DNA of 64,000 nucleotides. It comes from an uncultured bacterium (GTDB taxonomy: Bacteria; Actinomycetota; Acidimicrobiia; Spongiisociales; ZC4RG35). The notes beneath the pieces were generated by a model. It saw only the letters and a program-made list of their open reading frames with translations. It was not told the origin of the DNA and did no database searches. The stretch spans positions 1,839 to 65,838 of the forward strand of contig CAWGTX010000007.1 of the NCBI GenBank assembly GCA_963825585.1, read 5' to 3'. The position numbers and the translations under genes are program-made. Each line of letters begins with the position of its first letter. Position 1 is the first letter of the stretch. This document shows, in pieces, positions 22,186 to 31,998 of the stretch.

Positions 22186-22854
22186 GTGGCGATCACTCTC
22201 GTTCTGGCCGAGGACAGCTTCCTCATGCGCGAAGGCATCACCGCCCTGCTGGCGCTCGACGACCAGCTCGAGCTGCTGGCCGGATGTGCGTCCTACGACG
22301 AGCTGATGGCCGCCGTCGAACTCCACAACCCTGAGGTCGTGATCACCGACATCAGGATGCCGCCGACCCAGACCGACGAGGGAATCCGGGCGGCGAACGC
22401 AATCCGAACGAGCCACCCGGGCACCGGCGTGGTGGTGCTGAGCCAGTACGTGGAACCCGCCTACGCGTTGAAGCTCTTCGAGCAGGGATCGGAGGGTCGG
22501 GCGTACCTCCTCAAGGAACGGGTCGCCGACCTCGACGAACTGGGTGCCGCCATCCGACGCGTCGCCCAGGGCGGATCGGTGGTCGATCCGAAAGTGATGG
22601 ATGCTCTGATCCAGTCGAACTCCGAGGGAGCCTCGACGATCCTCGATCGGCTCACCGATCGGGAGCGGGAGGTCCTCGCCGAGATGGCGAAGGGCGGCAG
22701 CAACGCCGCCATCGGCGAGGCACTCTTCATCTCTGCACGTTCGGTGGAAAAGCACGTCAACACCATCTTCACCAAGCTCGACCTCATTCCGACCGACGAT
22801 GTGAACCGTCGGGTCAGGGCCGTGCTCATCTACCTCGGAGTTGCGGGCGAGTAG
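22186..22854 (+). CDS. NarL/LuxR family DNA-binding response regulator
   Basis: LAED, ITDIRMPP (phospho-Asp), YLLKE, LTDREREVL...SVEKHVNTIFTKL. Confidence 0.95.
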   Translation: MAITLVLAEDSFLMREGITALLALDDQLELLAGCASYDELMAAVELHNPEVVITDIRMPPTQTDEGIRAANAIRTSHPGTGVVVLSQYVEPAYALKLFEQGSEGRAYLLKERVADLDELGAAIRRVAQGGSVVDPKVMDALIQSNSEGASTILDRLTDREREVLAEMAKGGSNAAIGEALFISARSVEKHVNTIFTKLDLIPTDDVNRRVRAVLIYLGVAGE

Positions 22855-22929
22855 CCCGTGCCAGCACCACCCCCGAATGGCGGGTCAGCGCGGTGGTCGA
22901 ACCCCGTCGCCTCCGCCATCATGGGGCGC

Positions 22930-23304
22930 ATGATGTCTGTGCGAGTGCTCATCGTGGATGATCAGAGGCCGTTTCGAGAGGCTTCGCGGATGGTCGTGGA
23001 AATGACCGACGGTTTCGAAGTCGTCGGCGAGGCCGAGAACGGCGAGGATGCCGTTTCCATGGCGTCGGATCTGCGGCCGGACCTGGTTCTCATGGACGTT
23101 CAGATGCCGGGAATCGATGGGCTCGAGGCAACCCGCAGGATCATGAGCCTCGATTCGCCACCTCGGGTGCTGGTGATGTCGACCCACGAATCGGGCAGCT
23201 ACGAAGAGCCGGCGCTGGCGGCCGGTGCCATCGCCTTCATCCCGAAGTCCGAGTTCAGCATGGACGCTCTGGAAACGTCCTGGGCTGCGGCGGTCGGAAC
23301 CTAG
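22930..23304 (+). CDS. Stand-alone receiver-domain response regulator
   Basis: VLIVDD, LVLMDVQMPGIDG, AFIPKS; no output domain. Confidence 0.9.
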   Translation: MMSVRVLIVDDQRPFREASRMVVEMTDGFEVVGEAENGEDAVSMASDLRPDLVLMDVQMPGIDGLEATRRIMSLDSPPRVLVMSTHESGSYEEPALAAGAIAFIPKSEFSMDALETSWAAAVGT

Positions 23305-25370
23305 GACGTACCGGCGACCGCCGCCGATATCGGCACAATCCCTGTGATGGTGGTGCCGACCCCTGGGGTGGAGTCGATGTGGATGGTTCCTCCGACGGTG
23401 TCGAGCCGGTCGGCGATGCCGTTCAGCCCCGCCCCGAGCTTCACCGTCTCCGGATCGAAGCCGTTGCCGTCGTCGGCCACCTCGAAGGTGAGCGCACCGC
23501 CACGTTCTGAAAGGGTGATGGCGACCGAGGAAGCGTCCGCATACTTCGTGGCGTTCTGCACTGATTCGAGGACCGAGAAGTACACGGCGGCCTCCACCTC
23601 CCGGGGGAACCGACCGCACCCCTCGCCCGAGATGGACACCGGAAGCGCGGCCGATCGCACCTGCTGGCGGATCGCCATCACCAGTCCCTCGGCCTCCAAC
23701 GTGGGCGGATAGATCCCGCCGGCGAAATCGCGCACCGCCTTGATGGCGTCTCCCGCCTGCTGCTCCAACTGACCCAACAGACTCGCGGTCTTCTCCGCCC
23801 CCGACTTCTCCGCCAACATCCGGGTCGGCCCCAACTTCACCTTCAACGCCACCAACTGCTGCTGCGGTCCGCTGTCCAGCGTGTGCTCCAACTCACGACG
23901 CGCCGCATCCGCCGCCACCAGCACCCGCTCACGCGACGCTTCCAACTCGGTCACCTGACGACGCAACTCACCCGTCAGCTGGGCGTTACGCAACGCCAAG
24001 CCCAACCCTGATGCCAAATCGGACAGCAGTCCCTCCTCGGCCGGTGTCACCGCCTCGCCCGCTTCCTTGACCAACGACAATCCGCCCAACAGCTCATCGT
24101 CGTGGAACACCCCCAGCGACCAATCCGCCTCGGGATCTGTGAAGGCATCGCCGCCGTCCAGTCGACGCAACCCCGCATCAGACGGCCAAACCGCCGCCGT
24201 TTCGAAGTGGTCGCCGCGTCGGGTCCACAGGGTCGCCGATCTCGCCCCGGTTCCGTCCACCATCCACTGGGGGATGCGTTCCAGCAGCTCCTCATCGGAC
24301 AGCTCGGACGAGCGATGAGAGAACCGGACCAGGATCTCGTGTGGTGTCGCCCGTTCGCCATAGACCAACCGGTTCGCCCAGCGCTGCAACCGTCGACGCG
24401 CCGGCTGGAAGGCCAACGCCACCACGACCGTCGCCACGATCGACAGCCCGAACCCGGCTTCGCCGCCGAGCAACCGACCCAATCCAACGACAGTGGCCAC
24501 GTACACCCCTCCGATGAACAGCGCCAACCCTCCGAAGGTCACCGACCGGGACAGGATGCGATCGATCTCGTACAACCGAAACCGAAAGATGGCGATGGCG
24601 ATGGCAATCGGAATCGCCAGGTAGATGACGGCGTCGAAGAAGGCGAAACCGCTCTCGTACGCTCCGAGCGGATCGAAGATGCCGTTGGAGATGCCGAGCA
24701 CGAAGTACAGCGCGCAGGCGAATCCGACCCATCCGATCTGTCGGCGTTCGACCGGCTCACTCCGGCGAGCCCTCATGATCAACCTGACTGCTGCCACGAG
24801 GAAGAAGATCAGGATGGGAAAGAACAAGACTTCGACGACTGGCCCCAGTGGATCTGCGATCTCGGCGTCGACGAACGGATGGGGGTAGCCCGAGCCACCG
24901 GGCTCCCCCAGGGCGCGGGGGCTCGCAACCAGTGCCAGGAGCGCCACCATCGACGTGTAGATCGCCGTCGCGCGGATGAACCTACGGTCCCACTCCGATG
25001 AAACCCGCCCGTAGGGAAACAGGAGGATCATCGGCACCTGGATCCAGGTGGCGAACTTGTCGATCGGACTGAACGCCCACGCGATCCAACTGGCGACTTC
25101 GACGTCACCCGCCTGGGCGTACCAGGCCGCCGCCACGTCTGCCGCGTGGATCGCATTCCACAGCACCCCGAGTGTCAAGAGCAGCGCACCAACGACGTTG
25201 CCGGGCTTCCGCACGACGATGATCGCCCCGATCGCCATGAAGGCACCGTTGGCAACGGCTTGTCCCCACGCAAGTGGCGTCCCCAGGAGCACGAGCGTCA
25301 CGGCCGCGGCGAGATACACGACCACTGCGGCCACCAGTGCGATCCGAACGCGTCGACTGAGAGTCGTCAT
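23301..25370 (-). CDS. Multi-TM HisKA_3-type sensor kinase with intact HATPase_c but no canonical phospho-His
   Basis: About 9 TM helices and a GAF-like region; H-box reads RELEHTLDSGPQQ; N box ESVQNATKYA, G1 ADDGNGFD, G2 GAGLNGIADR, STPGVGTTI. Confidence 0.85.
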   Translation of the reverse strand: MTTLSRRVRIALVAAVVVYLAAAVTLVLLGTPLAWGQAVANGAFMAIGAIIVVRKPGNVVGALLLTLGVLWNAIHAADVAAAWYAQAGDVEVASWIAWAFSPIDKFATWIQVPMILLFPYGRVSSEWDRRFIRATAIYTSMVALLALVASPRALGEPGGSGYPHPFVDAEIADPLGPVVEVLFFPILIFFLVAAVRLIMRARRSEPVERRQIGWVGFACALYFVLGISNGIFDPLGAYESGFAFFDAVIYLAIPIAIAIAIFRFRLYEIDRILSRSVTFGGLALFIGGVYVATVVGLGRLLGGEAGFGLSIVATVVVALAFQPARRRLQRWANRLVYGERATPHEILVRFSHRSSELSDEELLERIPQWMVDGTGARSATLWTRRGDHFETAAVWPSDAGLRRLDGGDAFTDPEADWSLGVFHDDELLGGLSLVKEAGEAVTPAEEGLLSDLASGLGLALRNAQLTGELRRQVTELEASRERVLVAADAARRELEHTLDSGPQQQLVALKVKLGPTRMLAEKSGAEKTASLLGQLEQQAGDAIKAVRDFAGGIYPPTLEAEGLVMAIRQQVRSAALPVSISGEGCGRFPREVEAAVYFSVLESVQNATKYADASSVAITLSERGGALTFEVADDGNGFDPETVKLGAGLNGIADRLDTVGGTIHIDSTPGVGTTITGIVPISAAVAGTS

Positions 25371-27463
25371 GAGAGCTCCGCCACCAGTTGGGTGGTCGAC
25401 GACACGGCGTCGATCGACTGGGGTGTCGGGAATCGCGCGGTGAGTTCGATGGCCTGATCCGCCGCATGAATCGAGAGGGTTCCACCGGCGGCGTCGACTC
25501 GGTCGTGGACGACGGTGACGTCGAGGTCTGTCGTTCCTTTCACATCGACTGTCATCACCAACTCACCGGCGAGGCCGGTGAGACCGACCGTCATCTGCGT
25601 CGCTCCCGACATGCGGGCCCGTTCGATCATCTCGAGCACCGAGAAGTAAACGGTCTCCTCGATCGGGCGTGGAAACCTGGCGACGTCATCGGCGCCGACG
25701 GTGAGGGGTATCTGCGAGGTTCGTTCGACCGCACGCAGGGCAGCCTCGAGACCCTCGGACTCCAACAACGGCGGATAGATCCCGTGGGCGACCGCCCTGA
25801 GCGCATCGACCGCCTGTTGGGTCTCCTCGGCCAACACCGACACCCGGGCGACGATGTCGTCGGCGCCTTCCCGTTCGGCGATGGTCCTGGCGATCCCCAA
25901 CTTCACCTTCAACGCGACGACCTGCTGTTGGGCACCGTCGTGGAGATTCCGTTCGAGACGATGACGCTCGGAGTCCTGCGCAGCGATCAGCCGCCGCCGC
26001 GACTCCCGCACCTCTTCCGCCCGCTTCTCCAACTCACGATTCAACGAGATGTTGCGCAACACCAACCCCGCACCGGCAGCGACATCCGCCAGCAAATCCC
26101 GATCGTTCGGACTGATCGGATCGTCGGGCGGTTTGGTGATGCTCACTGCACCGAACACGTCACCCCGATACACCACCGGCCGTGATGCTGTCAGCTCGTC
26201 GTCGACCAGACCACCAACAGAAACCGGTTCGATCGACTGGGATTCCCCACGGAAGAAGACCCCGTCAGGTGACAGCACGTCGTCGATCTTCAACCAGACG
26301 ACCGCCCGCTCGGCACCGGTCCCCTGGGCAAGCAACTGAGCGAGGTCGTCGGTGCCGTTGCCGATCGTCGACTCAGCCAGCCGGGAGGTGAGCTTTGAAA
26401 GCACCTCGTGTGGCGTGGCTCGCTCGCCGTAGACCAGACGGTCGGCCCAGCGCTGCATTCGGTCCCGGACAGGCTCGAACACCACCGCCACCACAGCCGC
26501 CGCCACGATCGGGAGCACCAGACCCGGCCCCTCACCATCCGACCGCCCAACCACGAGCAGCGGCAACACCACCACCGTTGCGTACAAGCCGGCGATCGTC
26601 ACAGCCAAAGCGAGGTAGGTCACCGACTTGGAAACGATGACGTCGATGTCGTAGAGGCGGTATCGGAAGATCGAGACGCTGATCCCGAGTGGTATCAACA
26701 CGATCGCCACGGCGTCGATCAGCAGGAAGGCGCTGTCTTCATTGCCGAGCGGGGCGATGGACACGTTGGCGATGAGAATCGTCAGGTTGAGGACGACTGC
26801 TGCGGCGATCCAGCCCACCTGGCGGCGCTCGATCGGATCGCCGTGACGCAGCCTGAGGACCAGCCTCACGGCGACGAAGTATCCGAACGCGAAGAACAGA
26901 AAGGTCAAGCCTTGAACGACGACGTAGAGGGGTTGAGCGATCTCGCTCGGGACGAAGGGGTGCGGGTACGCCTGGGTCTCGGGTAAGAGTTGGGGGGTGG
27001 CGAAGACGGTGGCGACCGTCACCACGGCCGCGAGTGCCCCGCTTGCCTGGAGGAGCCTCCGGTCTGTCTCCGTGGTGGGCCGACCATTGGGGAAGACCAA
27101 CCAGATGGCGGCGAGCAGCCAGAACGTAGGAGCGACCGGTACGACCGCTGCGAGGGTCATCCAGGCGGCGGCATCAAGACGTCCCGCCTGGTCGAGGGCG
27201 TCGGCCATGACGCCCAGCGCTGTCGACAGGGCCCACAGCGAGCCGTATGCCACGAGCATGAGCCCCAGCCGATTCTCCCGGCGCACCACGATCAGCCCAC
27301 CGACCAGGACGAAGGTACCGAAAGCGGTGAGGGTGGCGATCTCGTAGCTCCGTGACAGGACCAGGGAAACCACGACCGAAACGAGGTAGACGGCCACGCC
27401 GGCACGGAGAAGACGTCTCTGCCGAGTCCGGGGACCGGTGACCCGACCATCCGTCGGCATCAT
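25367..27463 (-). CDS. Multi-TM HisKA_3-type sensor kinase with intact phospho-His but degenerate HATPase_c
   Basis: Paralog of the neighbour (shared RLVYGERATPHE). H-box RLERNLHDGAQQ; N box reads EMIERARMS; no DDGxG or GxGL. Confidence 0.85.
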   Translation of the reverse strand: MMPTDGRVTGPRTRQRRLLRAGVAVYLVSVVVSLVLSRSYEIATLTAFGTFVLVGGLIVVRRENRLGLMLVAYGSLWALSTALGVMADALDQAGRLDAAAWMTLAAVVPVAPTFWLLAAIWLVFPNGRPTTETDRRLLQASGALAAVVTVATVFATPQLLPETQAYPHPFVPSEIAQPLYVVVQGLTFLFFAFGYFVAVRLVLRLRHGDPIERRQVGWIAAAVVLNLTILIANVSIAPLGNEDSAFLLIDAVAIVLIPLGISVSIFRYRLYDIDVIVSKSVTYLALAVTIAGLYATVVVLPLLVVGRSDGEGPGLVLPIVAAAVVAVVFEPVRDRMQRWADRLVYGERATPHEVLSKLTSRLAESTIGNGTDDLAQLLAQGTGAERAVVWLKIDDVLSPDGVFFRGESQSIEPVSVGGLVDDELTASRPVVYRGDVFGAVSITKPPDDPISPNDRDLLADVAAGAGLVLRNISLNRELEKRAEEVRESRRRLIAAQDSERHRLERNLHDGAQQQVVALKVKLGIARTIAEREGADDIVARVSVLAEETQQAVDALRAVAHGIYPPLLESEGLEAALRAVERTSQIPLTVGADDVARFPRPIEETVYFSVLEMIERARMSGATQMTVGLTGLAGELVMTVDVKGTTDLDVTVVHDRVDAAGGTLSIHAADQAIELTARFPTPQSIDAVSSTTQLVAELS

Positions 27464-28764
27464 GTCTGCCTCGGTGGGAAGCGGTGGGCACCGACGGCGG
27501 TATCACGGCCTTTGACCAGCGCCGGCTCCAGCACGTCCGCTTCGGGTTGCCACTCGATCGCCTGCCACGTCGGCTCACTGAGGACCGTCTCGCCGGGCTC
27601 GGCCCACTGCTGCAGCCGCTGGGTGAGGTTCACGGTGTCGCCGACGACCGAGTACTCCAGCCGCTCCTCGGATCCGAGCAGGGCCGCCGCCACCAACCCG
27701 GTCGACAGCCCGATGCCCAGTCCGAAGGGATCAAGCCCATCGGATTCCCACCGCTGATTGAGGTCGGACTGGGCTGTGTGCATGGCGATGGCGGCAGCGA
27801 CCGCCCGATCGGCGTGGTCGGTTTGGGCTACCGGCGCCCCGAACACCGCCATGACGGCGTCGCCGACGAACTGCATGACCGTCCCCCCCTCCCCGAGGAT
27901 GGCGCGGTTCATCGCCGCCCGATGTTCGTGGAGCTGGCCGGCCAGGGCGCTCGGTTCGGCGTGCTCTGCGATGGTGGTATACCCCCGGATGTCGGACATG
28001 AGCACTGTGACGATCAGTTCCTCGGTCTCACCGGGGCGGCGGCCCTCGCCGATGATCTGTGCCGCCACCCCGCCGGGTAGGAGCCGGCCGAGCGCTTCGC
28101 CCTGCTCCCGACCGTCGACTATGGCCCGCTGGAGCATCTTGAGACGGTCGAGACTGTCGGAACGCCCGGCGGCGAGCCCCTCGGCGAGCTTGCCGAACAA
28201 CGCCTCGATGGCGGCGTTGGCATCGGAGGGGGTGGTGGCGAGGTGGGCCGCGATCGCCTTCACCGTCCGCCCCTCGGCCACCAGCCTCAACAACTCCTCC
28301 TCACCGCTCGACAGTGAGCCGTCGGCCCTGACCGGGTTGACCAGGCCCTCGACGATCTTGGAGTCGAGCAGCGACCCGCCGGCCGCCACCTCACGCACCG
28401 CCCGCGCCAGCTGATCGCCTTCACCCACCCGGTCCTTCAGCAGGTAGGCGTATCCGGCGGCGCCCTCGGACAGCAACGAGACGGCGTAGTCGGGGTCGTC
28501 GAACTGCGAGAGGATCACGACGCCGGTTCCCGGGTGGCGCTTTCGGACCTCCTTGGCGGCATCGATTCCCTCACGCGAGAAGTTGGGCGGCATGCGGATG
28601 TCGGTGACGATCACCTGCGGACCGGTGGCCTCGGCGCCGGCCACGAGCTCGTCGTAGGCGCCGGCTTGACCCACGACCTCGAAGTCGTCCTCGAGCTCGA
28701 GCAGGGCCTTGACTCCCTCCCGCACGATGAGATTGTCATCGGCCAGGAACACGGTGATCGGCAT
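27460..28764 (-). CDS. Receiver / LuxR-like HTH / class III nucleotidyl cyclase fusion
   Basis: REC: FLADD, VTDIRMPP, YLLKD. HTH-like: LSSGEEELLRLVAEGRTVKAIA. Cyclase: MSDIRGYT, MQFVGDAVMAVFG, GIGLSTG, EYSVVGDTVNLTQRLQ. Confidence 0.9.
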   Translation of the reverse strand: MPITVFLADDNLIVREGVKALLELEDDFEVVGQAGAYDELVAGAEATGPQVIVTDIRMPPNFSREGIDAAKEVRKRHPGTGVVILSQFDDPDYAVSLLSEGAAGYAYLLKDRVGEGDQLARAVREVAAGGSLLDSKIVEGLVNPVRADGSLSSGEEELLRLVAEGRTVKAIAAHLATTPSDANAAIEALFGKLAEGLAAGRSDSLDRLKMLQRAIVDGREQGEALGRLLPGGVAAQIIGEGRRPGETEELIVTVLMSDIRGYTTIAEHAEPSALAGQLHEHRAAMNRAILGEGGTVMQFVGDAVMAVFGAPVAQTDHADRAVAAAIAMHTAQSDLNQRWESDGLDPFGLGIGLSTGLVAAALLGSEERLEYSVVGDTVNLTQRLQQWAEPGETVLSEPTWQAIEWQPEADVLEPALVKGRDTAVGAHRFPPRQT

Positions 28765-28968
28765 GACAGACCTCTCGGGACGATGGAACGTGTCGCCATC
28801 TTGGCCGGTCACCGGGCGATTGCCCAGCGTGCGGGCTCGCAGTCTCGAGGTGGTGCCAGCACCCATGCGTCGAAGGGCCATCACCCTGGCGCGGATCCGA
28901 CGAGGGGCGCACATTGGGACCTACAACCCGAGCCCGACATCACCGGCCGACCACGAGAGGAGAGGGCG

Positions 28969-29376
28969 ATGAGCGATCTGAAGGCGCTGTCACAGCGCAT
29001 GTACGACGAGATGGCGGCGGGTGCCGACATCGATGCGATGGCAGAGCGGTATCTGGCGGAGGACTACGTCGACCACGAGCTTCCCGGGTCGAACCGCGAG
29101 GCTGCGGTCGAGATGTTCAACATGGCGCACGCGGCGTTCCCCGACTTCCGTATGGAGGTCGTCGAGATGCTGCAGGACGGTGACAAGGTCGTTGCCCGTC
29201 TCAGGATGCGGGGAACCCACCAGGGCGAGTTCATGGGCATACCGGCCAGCGGCAACCCGATCGACGTGGCCGGGATCGACATCAACCAGTGGCGGGACGG
29301 CAAGTGCATCGCCCACTGGGGCGTCACGGACTTCGCGGCAATGATGCAACAGATCGGCGACGGGGCTCCTGCCTAG
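28969..29376 (+). CDS. SnoaL-like ester cyclase (NTF2 fold)
   Basis: AFPDF...GDKVVARLRMRGTHQGEFMGIPASGN...DGKCIAHW. Confidence 0.9.
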   Translation: MSDLKALSQRMYDEMAAGADIDAMAERYLAEDYVDHELPGSNREAAVEMFNMAHAAFPDFRMEVVEMLQDGDKVVARLRMRGTHQGEFMGIPASGNPIDVAGIDINQWRDGKCIAHWGVTDFAAMMQQIGDGAPA

Positions 29377-29400
29377 AGCACCCCGACCAGGAGGCCAGCC

Positions 29401-30405
29401 ATGCGCATCGAACACACCATCGCCACCGTGTCGTGGATCCCATCCGACCTGCTCGAAGGCATGGGCAAGGCGGCCACCCGGATGAAGCTGGCTCATCACG
29501 ATCCGCCGCCGCCCGACGATCTCGGCGACGACGCGCACGCCACGCTCGAGGGGCTGCGGGCCAACGACCGTTTCCGCTTCGCCAACGAGCTGCGGGCCTA
29601 CATCGAGGTCGACGACAGCGGGACCATCACCGATTCCGGCTACTCCGGTGGAGGCCTGATGGGGGCCACCACCGTGGGGCTGGGCGTGGGCTCGATCACG
29701 GTGCCGGCGGTCAGCCTCCCCGACCTCCGGTCAGAACCCGAGGCCGCGCCGGGAGCGGTCCGCTTCACCCAGACCACTGGGGGCAGGACCGGCGCACCCA
29801 TGCCCCGGGCGGTGAAACATCCGCCATTCGTGCAGTTCTTCGCCCCGAACGTGTGGACGACGGTGGAACTGACGATCAACGCCGACGGCACCCACACCGG
29901 CGGCCTGATCGGGGCATCGGGTTTCCCGCGGCATTGGGTGTTCGACGACGGCACCCTGGTAGCCAAGAGCAGCGTGGCGGAGTACAAGAAGTGGATGAAC
30001 GAGTCGTTCGGACGGAGAACGCCGTGGGGTGACGAGGACTCACCGGCCCTCGTCACCGAAGTGGAGACCCTGCTCGAGCGGCAGTTGCAGGAGCGGATCA
30101 TGCGAGGCGACCACAAGCCCGAGATCCGGCGGATCTCCCAGGGAGACACCCTGGTGGAACAAGGGTCGGCGAGCGAGGAACTGTTCCTCCTGCTCAACGG
30201 GGTGCTGGTGGTGGAGGTCGATGGCGAGAAGCTGGCCGAGCTGGGTCCGGGGGCGGTACTCGGTGAGCGGGCGGTCCTGGAAGGAGGGTCCCGGACGGCG
30301 ACGCTGCGAGCGGTGACCGACTGCAAGGTGGCGGCGGTTCCGCCGGACGGGATCGACCGTCAGAAGCTGGTCGAGCTGTCGACGGGCCATCGGCGCGAGG
30401 AGTAG
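29401..30405 (+). CDS. cNMP-binding domain protein with an unrecognised N-terminal domain
   Basis: C-terminal GDTLVEQG, LFLLLNG, LGPGAVLGERAVLEGGSRTATLRA phosphate-binding cassette. Confidence 0.85.
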   Translation: MRIEHTIATVSWIPSDLLEGMGKAATRMKLAHHDPPPPDDLGDDAHATLEGLRANDRFRFANELRAYIEVDDSGTITDSGYSGGGLMGATTVGLGVGSITVPAVSLPDLRSEPEAAPGAVRFTQTTGGRTGAPMPRAVKHPPFVQFFAPNVWTTVELTINADGTHTGGLIGASGFPRHWVFDDGTLVAKSSVAEYKKWMNESFGRRTPWGDEDSPALVTEVETLLERQLQERIMRGDHKPEIRRISQGDTLVEQGSASEELFLLLNGVLVVEVDGEKLAELGPGAVLGERAVLEGGSRTATLRAVTDCKVAAVPPDGIDRQKLVELSTGHRREE

Positions 30406-31250
30406 TGCGGATCCATGTGTGCGGCGTCCGGGGGTCCACCCCGGCGCCCGGCCCCGAGTTCGTTGAAGTTGGTGGCAACACGTCGTGTCTCGCCATCGCC
30501 CACGACGACGAGGACGCCCCTCGCCTGATCCTGGATGCCGGGACCGGCATCCGACGGGTTGACGCGCTCCTGGAGGGTGGGCCATTCGCCGGCACGATCC
30601 TGCTCGGTCATCTCCATTGGGACCACACGCAGGGCCTGCCGTTCTTCCGGAGCGCTGACCGTCCGGACGCCACGACCCGCCTGCTGGTGCCCGAGCAGGG
30701 CGCCCCGGCGATCGACCTGCTCCGGCGGTTCATGTCACCTCCGGCCTTCCCGATCGAACCGACCGGGCTCAACGGTTCGTGGTCGTTCGACTCGATCGCC
30801 GAAGGGACACACGCCATCGAAGGCTTCGAGGTGGTCGCCCGAGAGATCCCACACAAGGGCGGGCGGACGTTCGGGTATCGCATCAGCGATGGCCACGCCG
30901 GCTTCGCCTATCTCTCCGACCACGGCCCGGCGGGCGTGCTCGGACCCGGACCGGACGGGTGGGGGCCCTACCACGAGGCGGCGATGGACCTGTGCCGCGG
31001 GGTCGACCTGTTGATCCACGATGCCCAGCACACCTCCCAGGAACTGCCTACCCAGGCGGCATACGGGCACTCAGCCCTCGACTACCCGGTGGCGCTGGCG
31101 GAACGATGTGGTGTCCCACGGGTTCTCCTGTTCCATCACGCCCCGGGCCGCACCGATGCCGAGGTCTCCGACATCGAACGGTCAATGGCCGACAGAGGTA
31201 CGGTCGCCACCGAAGCGGCTCGCGAGGGCACGACGATCGAGCTCGCCTAG
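30405..31250 (+). CDS. MBL-fold metallo-hydrolase, putative cyclic-nucleotide phosphodiesterase
   Basis: GVRGSTP, GGNTSC, LDAGTG, HLHWDHTQG, LIHDAQ, GHS, LFHHAP; stop/start overlap with the cNMP gene. Confidence 0.85.
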   Translation: MRIHVCGVRGSTPAPGPEFVEVGGNTSCLAIAHDDEDAPRLILDAGTGIRRVDALLEGGPFAGTILLGHLHWDHTQGLPFFRSADRPDATTRLLVPEQGAPAIDLLRRFMSPPAFPIEPTGLNGSWSFDSIAEGTHAIEGFEVVAREIPHKGGRTFGYRISDGHAGFAYLSDHGPAGVLGPGPDGWGPYHEAAMDLCRGVDLLIHDAQHTSQELPTQAAYGHSALDYPVALAERCGVPRVLLFHHAPGRTDAEVSDIERSMADRGTVATEAAREGTTIELA

Positions 31251-31281
31251 GGCCCGAGCCTCGCATCGCTACGCTCGGTCG

Positions 31282-31998
31282 ATGGACGCTCAGGCCCGAC
31301 GATTCATGGACATGCACGACGACGGTTTCTTCGTGCTGCCAAACCCGTGGGACGTGGGGTCGGCGGTGATGTTGGAGAGGATGGGGTTCGCCGCCCTCGC
31401 CACCACCAGCGCCGGGTTCGCCGCCACTTGGGGGCGCGACGACTACGAGATCACGTTCGACGAGTTGTGCGCCCACGTCGAGGTGATGGCGGCGGCCGTG
31501 TCGGTGCCGCTCAACGTCGACGCCGAGCGCCTCTTCGCCGCCACACTCGACGAGGTCGCCGCCAACGTGGACACGTTGCGATCCCTGGGTGCCGCCGGGG
31601 TGTCGATCGAGGACTACGACCCCGTGACCGACGGCATCGACGACATCGCAGTCGCCGCCGAACGGGTGGCGGCCGCCGCCGGTCGAGGCGTGGTGCTGAC
31701 CGCCCGCGCCGAGAACCACCTCAATGGCGTCGACGACCTCGACGACACCATCGAGCGCCTCCGGGCCTATCGGGCCGCCGGCGCCGACGCCGTGTACGCC
31801 CCCGGTCTCACCGCCGAGGCAGACATGGCCCGGGTCGTCGACGAGGTCGGAGCCCCCGTCAATGTGCTGCTGCTTCCCGGCGGGCCGCCTCCCCGCCGCC
31901 TCGCCGAACTCGGCGTCCGCCGCGCTTCCACCGGGTCCACCCTGGCCCGTCTGGCATACGCCGCCGCCGAAGAGCAGGCCCGATCACTGCTGTACTGA
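31282..31998 (+). CDS. Isocitrate lyase/PEP mutase family protein
   Basis: LPNPWDVGSA, ALATTSAG, GVSIED, LTARAE, AGADAVYAPG. Confidence 0.9.
   Translation: MDAQARRFMDMHDDGFFVLPNPWDVGSAVMLERMGFAALATTSAGFAATWGRDDYEITFDELCAHVEVMAAAVSVPLNVDAERLFAATLDEVAANVDTLRSLGAAGVSIEDYDPVTDGIDDIAVAAERVAAAAGRGVVLTARAENHLNGVDDLDDTIERLRAYRAAGADAVYAPGLTAEADMARVVDEVGAPVNVLLLPGGPPPRRLAELGVRRASTGSTLARLAYAAAEEQARSLLY

What the first reader, a model, noticed from the sequence alone, without database searches (positions are those of the whole stretch)
22186..31250. Self-contained circuit: two-component input, cyclase, cNMP receptor and phosphodiesterase
Seen: the operon REC-HTH-cyclase > kinase > kinase converges on a NarL-type and a receiver-only regulator, and all three receivers keep the phospho-Asp. 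The divergent operon encodes SnoaL, a cNMP-binding protein and a coupled MBL hydrolase (HLHWDH). Inference: phosphorylation switches on the cyclase, the cNMP protein reads the signal and the MBL enzyme degrades it. The lone receiver could be a phosphate sink. A candidate writer, reader and eraser sit in one 9-kb locus, and I do not recognise this as a characterised system.
Basis: partly seen in the sequence, partly recalled or inferred. Interest (0 to 1): 0.85.

Follow-up and report, generated by a model that had tools for sequence, protein, structure and literature searches.

The report
Kinase-gated cyclic-nucleotide signalling gene module
This is a conserved gene module of uncultured soil and sediment Actinomycetota in which a two-component sensor system appears to switch on a cyclic-nucleotide-making enzyme, whose signal is probably read by a neighbouring protein carrying a domain of unknown function.

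Summary
The core recurs. Among 80 fetched loci that encode a relative of the 334-aa cNMP-binding protein, 63 also hold an orthologous REC-cyclase, and in 46 it is the divergent neighbour. 55 hold kinases, 44 the NarL-type regulator and 45 the lone receiver. The MBL hydrolase is an accessory part (29 of 80 loci, 20 directly downstream). SnoaL is a recent insertion (2 of 80).

Four points are new:
- The reader protein's first 228 residues match no Pfam family or PDB sequence, yet 1457 50%-identity representatives carry the domain.
- The cyclase keeps all catalytic residues but has Gln and Ser/Thr at the substrate-specifying positions, so its product is open.
- The two kinases are complementary half-kinases: one lacks the phospho-His, the other has a degenerate ATP-binding domain.
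- The cyclase's HTH is degenerate.

The MBL enzyme is only a distant relative of Rv1339-type cNMP phosphodiesterases.

No biochemistry is shown. I read this as a new variant of two-component-controlled cNMP signalling; it is not a defence system.

The parts
27460..28764 (-). REC - degenerate LuxR-type HTH - class III nucleotidyl cyclase (434 aa from MPITV; the longest ORF runs to 28914). Candidate 'writer'.
   Evidence: Pfam Response_reg E 5e-16 and Guanylate_cyc E 1e-20. PDB hits to Cya2, CyaB and CyaC cyclase domains at E 6e-30 to 5e-24. In 73 homologues both metal Asp, the Asn and the Arg are invariant; the Lys position is Gln in 72 of 73 and the Asp position is Thr in 48 and Ser in 24. No GerE hit.
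25367..27463 (-). Membrane kinase HK2: multi-TM N-terminus, weak GAF-like region, HisKA_3 with the phospho-His, degenerate ATP-binding domain (no N-box Asn, no DxGxG).
   Evidence: HisKA_3 E 3e-9, GAF E 8e-4 (below cut-off), no HATPase_c hit. Alignment columns. 4-nt overlap with the cyclase gene.
23301..25370 (-). Membrane kinase HK1: paralogue of HK2 with an intact ATP-binding domain (N-box Asn, DDGNG, G2) but Asp at the phospho-His position.
   Evidence: HATPase_c E 4e-11 and a weak HisKA_3 hit at E 6e-4. H-box column is D. 4-nt overlap with HK2.
22186..22854 (+). NarL/LuxR-type response regulator (REC + GerE HTH); presumed transcriptional output.
   Evidence: Response_reg E 1e-12 and GerE E 2e-13. 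About 40% identical to the REC-HTH part of the cyclase protein. Present in 44 of 80 loci.
22858..23304 (+). Stand-alone receiver (148 aa as the ORF is called; the true start may be about 25 codons later).
   Evidence: Response_reg E 5e-25. Present in 45 of 80 loci.
28765..28968 (.). Divergent intergenic (promoter) region between the cyclase operon and the SnoaL/CNB operon. It holds a partly conserved stretch (GGTGGTGCCAGCACC ... CACCCTGGC).
   Evidence: MAFFT alignment of 49 such intergenic regions. The consensus scan found no sigma-70-like promoter. No function is shown.
28969..29376 (+). SnoaL-like protein (135 aa). A lineage-specific insertion between the promoter and the CNB gene; not part of the module.
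   Evidence: SnoaL E 3e-32. Found beside the CNB gene only in L037 (96%-identical CNB gene). Absent from 16 of 16 loci; present in 2 of 80 loci.
29401..30405 (+). Candidate 'reader': 228-aa N-terminal domain of unknown family + cyclic-nucleotide-binding domain with an intact phosphate-binding cassette (GERA...RTAT) + conserved GHRREE tail.
   Evidence: cNMP_binding E 1e-15. Alignment A1 of 35 sequences. The N-domain has no Pfam hit, no PDB hit and no relation to CNB or MBL by hhalign. 7382 90%-identity clusters and 1457 50%-identity representatives carry it.
30405..31250 (+). MBL-fold (Lactamase_B_2) metallo-hydrolase, translationally coupled to the CNB gene. Candidate cNMP phosphodiesterase ('eraser') or cNMP-regulated output enzyme.
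   Evidence: Lactamase_B_2 E 1e-14. All five MBL motifs are invariant in 31 sequences. NF041851 'cyclic nucleotide-degrading phosphodiesterase' is matched full-length but far below cut-off in 31 of 31 members. hhalign to a genomic NF041851-like protein gives probability 95.5% over 226 columns.

Best explanation
This is a conserved signalling module in which a two-component system controls a cyclic mononucleotide second messenger alongside transcription.

Proposed mechanism (every step is inferred; only the sequences and the gene linkage are shown):
1. Two paralogous membrane kinases sense an unknown, probably membrane-associated, cue. In this lineage they work as one unit. HK1 supplies the ATP-binding catalytic domain and HK2 supplies the phospho-accepting His.
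2. The phosphoryl group goes to three receivers: a NarL-type DNA-binding regulator, a lone receiver, and the receiver of the REC-HTH*-cyclase protein.
3. Phosphorylation drives dimerisation of the NarL-like REC/helical module and so assembles the obligately dimeric class III cyclase. The nucleotide made is not predictable. The catalytic residues are intact, but the base-specifying pair is Gln + Ser/Thr, which is neither Lys/Asp (cAMP) nor Glu/Cys (cGMP).
4. The divergently encoded 334-aa protein binds the nucleotide in its canonical CNB domain and changes the state of its conserved N-terminal domain. That domain is the still unknown output.
5. Where present, the coupled MBL hydrolase most likely hydrolyses the cNMP and resets the signal.

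SnoaL is a passenger.
For: - Domains and residues are as described.
- Operon structure: 4-nt overlaps cyclase/HK2 and HK2/HK1, and a 1-nt overlap CNB/MBL.
- Linkage: 63 of 80 loci hold the cyclase ortholog, 46 as divergent neighbour at roughly 150-250 bp. 36 of 80 hold cyclase + kinase + NarL regulator + lone receiver together. In the loci fetched from relatives' genomes the figure is 8 of 16.
- Phyletic pattern in 41 related genomes (hand-tabulated from the place lists): both genes in 9, CNB protein only in 5, cyclase only in 3, neither in 24.
- The genome has only 3 cyclase genes and 9 CNB genes, so chance adjacency is unlikely.
- Complementary degeneracy of the two kinases was recovered in 15 loci. 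39 of the 76 kinases scored are canonical, and the loci with only one scored kinase mostly carry that type.
- The MBL keeps every metal-binding motif and is homologous over its full length to the atypical class-II PDE branch. Members of that branch (Rv1339, YhfI, Apyc1) hydrolyse cNMPs (PMC9293780 and PMC9117128, passages read).
- More distant paralogues of this MBL lie within 2.5 kb of other CNB-domain genes at 6 of 33 places. I estimate under 1 by chance (my tally).
- The flanks are metabolic genes; none is a defence or mobile gene.
Against: - Nothing biochemical is shown.
- 5 loci with at least 3.4 kb of upstream DNA lack the orthologous cyclase (L086, L090, L098, L107, L109).
- 5 of 41 genomes have the CNB protein without the cyclase and 3 the reverse, so the pairing is not obligatory.
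- The MBL is absent from 51 of 80 loci. It scores 25 bits against a 400-bit cut-off for NF041851, has Gly where the Rv1339 family has Thr/Ser, and scores about as well against RNase Z models. The genome has two far better Rv1339-like genes elsewhere.
- The function of the N-terminal domain is unknown, so 'reader' describes only its CNB half.
- The loci are mostly from related MAGs, so the counts are not independent events.
- Gene-start and half-kinase calls rest on alignments; no experimental data back them.
Confidence: 0.6

Rival explanations
1. The MBL hydrolase (and, in other lineages, other downstream enzymes) is the output and does not erase the signal. On this reading the N-domain-CNB protein is a cNMP-dependent regulator of whatever enzyme is encoded after it, and the MBL acts on RNA or another phosphodiester.
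For: - The MBL scores as well against RNase Z models as against the cNMP phosphodiesterase model (PDB RNase Z hits at E 3e-12).
- The gene after the CNB gene varies: MBL in 20 loci and an FAD amine-oxidase-like gene in 22 loci.
- Long predicted proteins join N-domain-CNB to an endonuclease/exonuclease/phosphatase domain (P0271) or to an AidB-like acyl-CoA dehydrogenase (P0275).
- The 1-nt overlap suggests stoichiometric co-production.
Against: - RNase Z matches cover only the C-terminal third, whereas the phosphodiesterase model and the hhalign match are full-length.
- Paralogues of this MBL sit beside unrelated small CNB proteins. That fits a nucleotide-centred role better than a partner-specific one.
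- The long fused forms are few, and two of them look like frameshifted assemblies.
- No complex prediction could be run.
Confidence: 0.17
2. The N-domain-CNB protein is a product-sensing feedback regulator of the cyclase or the kinases. Its N-domain would bind them. It would not be a downstream effector.
For: - Tight divergent pairing with the cyclase in 46 of 80 loci.
- One long protein (P0273, a cluster of 5 member sequences) carries cyclase-like domains, AAA_16 and TPR, and ends in N-domain-CNB. That links the module to cyclases of another architecture.
- No other conserved effector gene was found in the neighbourhood.
Against: - The CNB protein occurs without the orthologous cyclase in 5 of 41 genomes and in 5 well-flanked loci.
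- The first cyclase-like domain of P0273 looks degenerate.
- No interaction test was possible.
- The many invariant polar residues in the N-domain would suit an enzyme or ligand site at least as well.
Confidence: 0.15
3. A Pycsar-like anti-phage system: the cyclase makes a cyclic nucleotide on infection and the CNB protein is a toxic effector.
For: - PADLOC PycC models match the cyclase domain (best E 2e-20), and Pycsar effector models match the CNB domain (best E 2e-10).
- The non-canonical substrate residues leave a pyrimidine product possible.
- An MBL phosphodiesterase family (Apyc1) degrades Pycsar signals (PMC9117128, passages read).
- The module is found in only 2 of the 5 genomes searched in its genus.
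Against: - The PADLOC matches cover only the generic cyclase and CNB domains; the best PycC hit (71.3 bits) is no better than Pfam's generic cyclase model (74.3 bits).
- The effector half has no PADLOC or Pfam match, TIR included, and I see no membrane-spanning stretch in its sequence (by eye).
- The cyclase is fused to a receiver and co-transcribed with membrane kinases, and a DNA-binding regulator is part of the set. That is signalling logic.
- The neighbours are metabolic genes with no defence or mobile genes.
- The MBL has no PADLOC hit and only E 0.76 to Apyc1.
Confidence: 0.05
4. Unrelated signalling genes that merely lie side by side.
For: Two-component, cyclase and CNB genes are common in Actinomycetota, and no functional data exist.
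Against: The same set recurs in 36 of 80 loci, and the cyclase-CNB pair in 63 of 80, down to 53% identity and across differently labelled phyla. This genome has only 3 cyclases.
Confidence: 0.02

Closest known systems
Xanthomonas campestris XC_0250 / XC_0249 cyclic GMP pathway (PMC3770947; abstract and passages read)
   Same: A class III cyclase with non-canonical residues is encoded next to a protein whose CNB domain binds the product and controls an attached output domain. The gene pair is conserved among relatives.
   Different: - There the cyclase carries TPR repeats, not a receiver, and lacks the Asn/Arg pair.
- There the output domain is a known GGDEF.
- Here the input is a two-component system, the output domain is unknown, and a hydrolase often follows.
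Dictyostelium GbpA/GbpB (MBL-type class IIb phosphodiesterases with two CNB domains) and RegA (receiver-controlled phosphodiesterase) (PMC11988041; passages read)
   Same: MBL-fold catalytic domain combined with CNB domains, and two-component control of cyclic-nucleotide levels.
   Different: - In GbpA/B the MBL and CNB domains are one polypeptide, with the CNB domains after the catalytic domain. Here they are separate coupled genes in the order CNB then MBL.
- In RegA the receiver controls breakdown; here it would control synthesis.
- No sequence comparison with these proteins was made here.
Atypical class-II phosphodiesterases: Rv1339, YhfI/YfhI, CpdA (PMC9293780; passages read) and phage Apyc1 (PMC9117128; passages read)
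   Same: Pfam PF12706, an HxHxDH metal site, about 250-280 aa. Full-length profile match to a genomic relative of NF041851 (probability 95.5%).
   Different: - 25 bits against a 400-bit cut-off.
- GHLHWDH in place of [T/S]HxHxDH.
- E 0.76 to Apyc1 and E 5e-4 to BA1088; I recall BA1088 as YhfI-like, which was not checked.
- It forms a separate subfamily with its own PHKGGRT motif.
- Activity is untested.
Pycsar (cyclase + CNB-domain effector)
   Same: A class III-type cyclase gene next to a gene for a CNB domain fused to another domain.
   Different: No TIR or membrane effector, receiver and kinases attached, no defence context.
Receiver-fused second-messenger synthases such as WspR/PleD (REC-GGDEF) and cyanobacterial CyaC (recalled; WspR titles seen only in the listing)
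   Same: Logic: phosphorylation of a receiver controls an obligately dimeric nucleotide cyclase.
   Different: A different catalytic domain (WspR/PleD) or a hybrid kinase architecture (CyaC). None is described with this CNB partner or with a vestigial LuxR HTH between receiver and cyclase.
Mycobacterial cyclase Rv0386 with Gln/Asn substrate residues (recalled; I read no passage about it, although its name occurs in papers listed)
   Same: Gln replaces the substrate-specifying Lys of a class III cyclase.
   Different: The second residue is Asn there and Ser/Thr here. The architecture is cyclase-ATPase-HTH, without a receiver.

Membership tests
Class III nucleotidyl cyclase (PF00211) | Two metal-binding Asp | tested here: met
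   D258 and D302 of the 434-aa protein; 73 of 73 homologues.
Class III nucleotidyl cyclase (PF00211) | Transition-state Asn and Arg | tested here: met
   N379 and R383; 73 of 73.
Adenylate cyclase subtype | Substrate-specifying Lys plus Asp (or Thr) | tested here: not met
   The Lys position is Gln in 72 of 73. The second position is Thr in 48 and Ser in 24. Positions were assigned from the HMMER alignment to Cya2 and CyaB and from my recollection of the motif.
Guanylate cyclase subtype | Substrate-specifying Glu plus Cys/Gly/Ser | tested here: not met
   Gln, not Glu, at the first position.
Response-regulator receivers (all three) | Acidic pair, phospho-Asp, Ser/Thr, Lys | tested here: met
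   Pfam hits. Residues read by eye: DD9-10 / D55 / S86 / K110 in the cyclase, ED9-10 / D54 / S86 / K110 in the NarL regulator, DD34-35 / D80 / S108 / K130 in the lone receiver.
LuxR/GerE HTH in the cyclase protein | Recognisable GerE domain with a DNA-contacting recognition helix | tested here: not met
   No GerE hit at E <= 0.01. The segment aligns to NarL-family models, but the recognition-helix residues are replaced while the segment stays conserved within the family.
Cyclic-nucleotide-binding domain (PF00027) | Phosphate-binding cassette Gly-Glu ... Arg-Thr/Ser-Ala | tested here: met
   GERAVLEGGSRTAT. G288, E289 and A291 are invariant; R298 and T299 are kept in at least 90% of 35 sequences.
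HisKA_3 histidine kinase (HK1) | Phospho-accepting His in the H-box | tested here: not met
   Asp at that column in HK1 and in 14 homologues; N-box Asn and DxGxG are present.
HisKA_3 histidine kinase (HK2) | ATP-binding N-box Asn and G1 DxGxG | tested here: not met
   Arg at the Asn column and no DxGxG; His is present; no HATPase_c Pfam hit.
Atypical class-II cNMP phosphodiesterase (Rv1339/YhfI/CpdA; NF041851) | PF12706 fold with all metal ligands | tested here: met
   Lactamase_B_2 E 1e-14. D44, H69, H71, D73, H74, H150, D172 and H244/H245 are invariant in 31 sequences.
Atypical class-II cNMP phosphodiesterase (Rv1339/YhfI/CpdA; NF041851) | Signature [T/S]HxHxDH (PMC9293780) and score over the NCBIfam cut-off | tested here: not met
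   GHLHWDH. 25.1 bits against a 400-bit cut-off; the best family member reaches E 2e-13.
Atypical class-II cNMP phosphodiesterase (Rv1339/YhfI/CpdA; NF041851) | Hydrolysis of 3',5'-cNMP | not testable with these tools
   Needs an enzyme assay.
Pycsar | CNB effector fused to a TIR or transmembrane killing domain | tested here: not met
   PADLOC matches cover only residues 239-323. No Pfam family in residues 1-228.
SnoaL-like (PF07366) | Belongs to the conserved module | tested here: not met
   Domain E 3e-32, but present in 0 of 16 loci and 2 of 80 loci.

The most novel reading that the evidence does not exclude
The Gln + Ser/Thr cyclases make a nucleotide other than cAMP (cGMP, or a pyrimidine or mixed product). 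The 228-aa N-terminal domain is a new cNMP-gated catalytic or effector domain. Together with split half-kinases they would form an orthogonal, kinase-gated second-messenger channel. It would be widespread in uncultured Acidimicrobiia and Dormibacterota (thousands of sequence clusters) and has no characterised member.
Probability: 0.2. Interest if true: 0.8.

Novelty: new variant of a known kind. Interest (0 to 1): 0.55.

Why it matters
Cyclic mononucleotide signalling in bacteria is known mainly from CRP-type transcription factors and a few special cases. Here a complete input-to-messenger pathway appears as one conserved gene set in abundant but uncultured soil, sediment and freshwater Actinomycetota.

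The pathway runs from sensor kinases through a receiver-gated cyclase to a dedicated binding protein, often followed by a hydrolase.

It raises three concrete, testable questions:
- What does a large orphan domain family do (1457 representatives at 50% identity, no Pfam or PDB relative)?
- Which nucleotide does a cyclase with a Gln-Ser/Thr specificity pair make?
- Do two degenerate kinases complement each other as an obligate heteromer?

Any of the three would add a new part to the catalogue of bacterial signalling.

Tried and rejected

**ESM Atlas.** It did not hold the window's protein or P0117. The stored homologue P0034 had no model, and its feature search gave only 'hypothetical protein' clusters.

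**Remote homology of the N-domain.**
- Pfam at E <= 10 on 35 members: only scattered single hits.
- PDB profile searches: only CNB-domain hits, or one chance hit at E 0.91.
- hhalign against the CNB part and against the MBL family: probabilities 0.1% and 0.3%. This rejects the idea that the N-domain is a degenerate CNB or MBL domain.

**Fused forms as Rosetta stones.** P0272 and P0277 (N-domain-CNB-MBL) align to the window's MBL over only part of its length, residues 1-208 and 87-254. They are single-member clusters. I take them as probable frameshifted assemblies that confirm adjacency only.

**Other checks.**
- Synteny test for a clean insertion or deletion of the module within the genus: G001 is syntenic on both sides, but G002 and G003 share only the ligase gene, so no conclusion.
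- Promoter and terminator scan: nothing above the shuffles.
- Expression: no RNA holder was listed; read laying was not used.

**Literature searches** found no description of this module. That covers only the held open-access library. The held text of PMC2447327 was too short to use. Supplements were not consulted.

**Unpublished genomes.** The tallies include the unpublished genomes G027 and G038.

Full report
**What is in the window.** The window is part of a 4.7-Mb, 10-contig genome (G000, 97.8% complete). Its closest public relatives are MAGs labelled Acidimicrobiia or Ilumatobacteraceae. GC content is 65-70% throughout, with no compositional break at the locus.

On the minus strand, 27460-28764 encodes a receiver, a NarL-like helical segment and a class III cyclase domain. 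It is followed, with 4-nt overlaps, by two about 690-aa membrane kinases of the HisKA_3 type (25367-27463 and 23301-25370). On the plus strand, 22186-22854 (REC + GerE) and 22858-23304 (receiver only) run towards them; the last kinase and the lone receiver overlap tail to tail by 4 nt.

Divergent from the cyclase lie SnoaL (28969-29376), a 334-aa protein with a cNMP-binding domain at residues 243-318 (29401-30405), and an MBL-fold protein (30405-31250). The MBL's GTG start shares one base with the preceding TAG stop.

The flanks encode an ATP-dependent DNA ligase and a BNR-repeat protein on one side. On the other side are a PEP-mutase-family protein, an amidohydrolase, a CMD-family protein, a ketopantoate reductase and an aldo-keto reductase. 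I saw no defence or mobile genes.

**Is the arrangement conserved?** The 334-aa protein found full-length or near-full-length relatives in 14 of 41 related genomes, and 240 stretches in the species-level genome collection, of which 80 loci were fetched.

tblastn with the eight window proteins gave these counts over the 80 loci (the criteria are in the script):

| Part | Loci of 80 |
|---|---|
| Orthologous REC-cyclase | 63 |
| Cyclase as divergent neighbour within 400 bp | 46 |
| Kinase(s) | 55 |
| NarL-type regulator | 44 |
| Lone receiver | 45 |
| Cyclase + kinase + regulator + lone receiver together | 36 |
| MBL | 29 |
| MBL directly downstream | 20 |
| SnoaL | 2 |

Of the 17 loci without a strict cyclase hit:
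- three (L044, L057, L065) have one by the looser criteria;
- nine have under 900 bp of upstream DNA;
- five (L086, L090, L098, L107, L109) have at least 3.4 kb upstream and no ortholog. L086 has a different, 32%-identical cyclase.

In 16 loci cut from relatives' genomes the cyclase was adjacent in 8, the MBL in 4 and SnoaL in none.

The phyletic pattern over the 41 genomes, hand-tabulated from the place lists, is: both genes in 9, CNB protein only in 5, cyclase only in 3, neither in 24. These genomes and loci are related, so the counts are not independent events. Even so, the pairing holds down to 53% identity of the CNB protein. It also extends to contigs labelled Dormibacterota (seven, plus one Candidatus Aeolococcus), Nitriliruptorales, Acidobacteriota and Saccharimonadales. 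Those labels are as deposited, and single odd labels may be binning errors.

G000 itself has only three class III cyclase genes and nine CNB genes. The core is therefore a real, conserved module.

SnoaL is not part of it. It is missing even from the 87%-identical locus of the same genus, where cyclase and CNB genes are 187 bp apart. Beside the CNB gene it is present only in a 96%-identical twin (L037).

**The cyclase.** The best solved relatives are the cyclase domains of Cya2, CyaB and CyaC (E 6e-30 to 5e-24).

In 73 sequences (the window plus 72 hits; two or three are the same contig fetched twice), both metal-binding Asp, the transition-state Asn and the Arg are invariant. The position that is Lys in adenylate cyclases and Glu in guanylate cyclases is Gln in 72 of 73. 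The second specificity position is Thr in 48 and Ser in 24. I assigned these positions from the HMMER alignments and from my recollection of class III motifs.

The enzyme should therefore be active, but its product cannot be read from the sequence. The only Gln precedent I know, Rv0386, I recalled and did not check.

The receiver has all phospho-acceptor residues. The segment between receiver and cyclase descends from a LuxR HTH: NarL-family models align through it. However, it gives no GerE hit and its recognition helix is replaced, while the segment stays conserved within the family. It probably serves as a structural or dimerising linker and not as a DNA-binding domain.

**The kinases.** HK1 and HK2 are paralogues (about 38% identical). 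Each has an N-terminal half that looks multi-membrane-spanning by eye, followed by a central stretch that gives only a weak, below-cut-off GAF hit in HK2.

In an alignment of 76 kinases from these loci:
- HK1 and 14 others have Asp at the phospho-His column but an intact N-box Asn and DxGxG;
- HK2 and 19 others keep the His but have lost the N-box Asn and the G1 box;
- 39 kinases are canonical.

Both partners were recovered together in 15 loci, including the window. The loci with only one scored kinase mostly carry the canonical type, with a few exceptions where I suspect the partner was missed by my gene filter. The simplest reading is sub-functionalisation into an obligate pair, in which HK1's catalytic domain phosphorylates HK2's His. 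This is inference from sequence. HK2 could instead act as a phosphotransferase or a phosphatase.

**The 'reader'.** The CNB domain has a textbook phosphate-binding cassette (GERAVLEGGSRTAT) that is almost invariant in 35 sequences. Its best PDB matches are PKG and PKA regulatory domains, which does not settle the ligand.

The first 228 residues are the surprise:
- They are highly conserved: 66% mean column identity, with 32 invariant positions including H32, D34, R59, N62, Q124, R136, R177, K189, E222 and E226.
- They match no Pfam family, no PDB sequence and no Atlas cluster with a name.
- They are unrelated to CNB or MBL profiles.
- They occur in at least 7382 clusters at 90% identity, a capped search, and in 1457 representatives at 50% identity. 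Nearly all are in the same N-domain + CNB format. A few have two CNB domains, or appear as the N-domain alone.

Longer predicted proteins attach the module to other parts: cyclase-like domains with AAA_16 and TPR (P0273), an endonuclease/exonuclease/phosphatase domain (P0271), or an AidB-like dehydrogenase (P0275). The two N-domain-CNB-MBL 'fusions' look like frameshifted assemblies.

**The MBL enzyme.** All MBL metal-binding motifs are invariant in 31 sequences.

- The family matches NCBIfam NF041851, 'cyclic nucleotide-degrading phosphodiesterase', over its full length in 31 of 31 members, but far below the cut-off (best E 2e-13; the window's protein scores 25 bits against 400). RNase Z models match about as well, but only over the C-terminal third.
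- A profile comparison with a genomic NF041851-like protein gives 95.5% probability over 226 columns.
- The Rv1339 paper defines atypical class-II phosphodiesterases (Rv1339, YfhI, CpdA; PF12706) by [T/S]HxHxDH and shows broad cNMP hydrolysis (PMC9293780, passages read). The window's protein has GHLHWDH.
- G000 has two much closer NF041851-like genes elsewhere (157.7 and 147.6 bits) and a 35%-identical paralogue of the window's MBL.

There is independent support for a nucleotide-related role. Close orthologues (at least 50% identity) occur in 5 of 41 genomes, always beside the CNB gene. Of 33 more distant paralogue sites, 6 lie within 2.5 kb of some other CNB-domain gene. I estimate fewer than one by chance, given at most about a dozen CNB hits per 2-4 Mb genome (my tally).

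MBL-fold cNMP phosphodiesterases combined with CNB domains are known from Dictyostelium GbpA/GbpB (PMC11988041, passages read). Phage Apyc1 and bacterial YhfI show that this fold hydrolyses cNMPs (PMC9117128, passages read).

I therefore consider 'cNMP phosphodiesterase' the most likely role. It is an accessory to the module, and the alternative that it is a regulated output enzyme is not excluded.

**Mechanism and rivals.** My best reading (confidence 0.6) has five steps:
1. The kinase pair senses a cue.
2. It phosphorylates a DNA-binding regulator, a lone receiver and the cyclase's receiver.
3. Phosphorylation assembles the cyclase dimer.
4. The nucleotide is bound by the CNB domain of the divergently encoded protein, whose N-domain executes an unknown output.
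5. The MBL enzyme, where present, resets the signal.

The rivals are:
- the MBL or other downstream enzymes are the output, regulated by the CNB protein (0.17);
- the CNB protein is a feedback regulator of the cyclase or kinases (0.15);
- a Pycsar-like defence system (0.05). PADLOC hits cover only the generic cyclase and CNB domains, there is no TIR or membrane effector, and there is no defence context;
- chance juxtaposition (0.02).

**Novelty.** Each domain family is known, except the N-domain. So is the logic of a receiver controlling a second-messenger synthase.

I found no description of this module, of the N-domain, of the Gln-Ser/Thr cyclase group or of the complementary kinase pair in seven full-text searches of the held library. 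That library omits most subscription journals, and supplements were not consulted.

I rate it a new variant of a known kind, with moderate to good interest. All biochemical claims are still untested.

Noticed in passing
window 23301-27463 (-), and 14 related loci such as L038-L041, L054, L060, L064, L070, L072-L074, L100, L105, L028: The two tandem kinases are complementary half-kinases. One has Asp (or Asn) in place of the phospho-His but an intact ATP-binding domain. The other keeps the His but has lost the N-box Asn and the DxGxG box. 39 of the 76 kinases scored are canonical, and loci with a single scored kinase mostly carry that type.
   Followed up: partly
window 28969-29376 (+): The SnoaL-like gene sits between the shared divergent promoter region and the CNB gene only in this genome and a 96%-identical twin (L037). 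In the same-genus genome G001 the cyclase and CNB genes are 187 bp apart with no SnoaL. This looks like a recent insertion into the operon leader.
   Followed up: yes
window 28765-28968 and 48 orthologous intergenic regions: A partly conserved stretch (GGTGGTGCCAGCACC, about 18 nt, CACCCTGGC) lies in the divergent intergenic region. It might be a regulator-binding site or promoter element. No sigma-70-like promoter was found by the consensus scan.
   Followed up: partly
G000:C1:841490-842233 and G000:C4:126833-127573 (loci L117, L118); G000:C1:505471-506274 (L119): The genome has two genes much closer to the Rv1339-type cNMP phosphodiesterase model (157.7 and 147.6 bits) and one 35%-identical paralogue of the window's MBL. 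These are other candidate cNMP erasers outside the window.
   Followed up: partly
G032:C4:11340-12555, G020:C182:3914-5019, G006:C5:32307-34758, G036:C3:38206-41078, G039:C56:9110-11775, G028:C126:52552-56539: Distant paralogues of the MBL gene lie next to other, differently built cNMP-binding-domain genes in six related genomes. This suggests a recurrent MBL-CNB gene pair beyond this module.
   Followed up: partly
L043:11037-12509 (+), L043:7533-9911 (-), L025:4065-5108 (-) and 21 similar loci each: In one Ilumatobacteraceae clade, an FAD amine-oxidase-like gene follows the CNB gene in place of the MBL. An FtsX-type permease plus ABC ATPase pair is inserted between the cyclase and the CNB gene.
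   Followed up: partly
G036:C8:167062-169509 (locus L036): A second copy of the cyclase-CNB pair in genome G036 is decaying. The CNB gene is in three frames, and the cyclase match has an in-frame TGA and is split in two pieces. An intact copy sits on contig C7.
   Followed up: no
window 22858-23304 (+): The lone receiver's ORF has a roughly 27-residue N-terminal extension before the receiver fold. Homologue alignments mostly begin near residue 25-28, so the true start is probably downstream of the GTG at 22858.
   Followed up: no
window 31021-31998 (+): The PEP-mutase-family gene after the MBL is not found in G001-G004 of the same genus. In G001 a different 1.1-kb stretch lies between the MBL and the conserved amidohydrolase gene.
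   Followed up: partly
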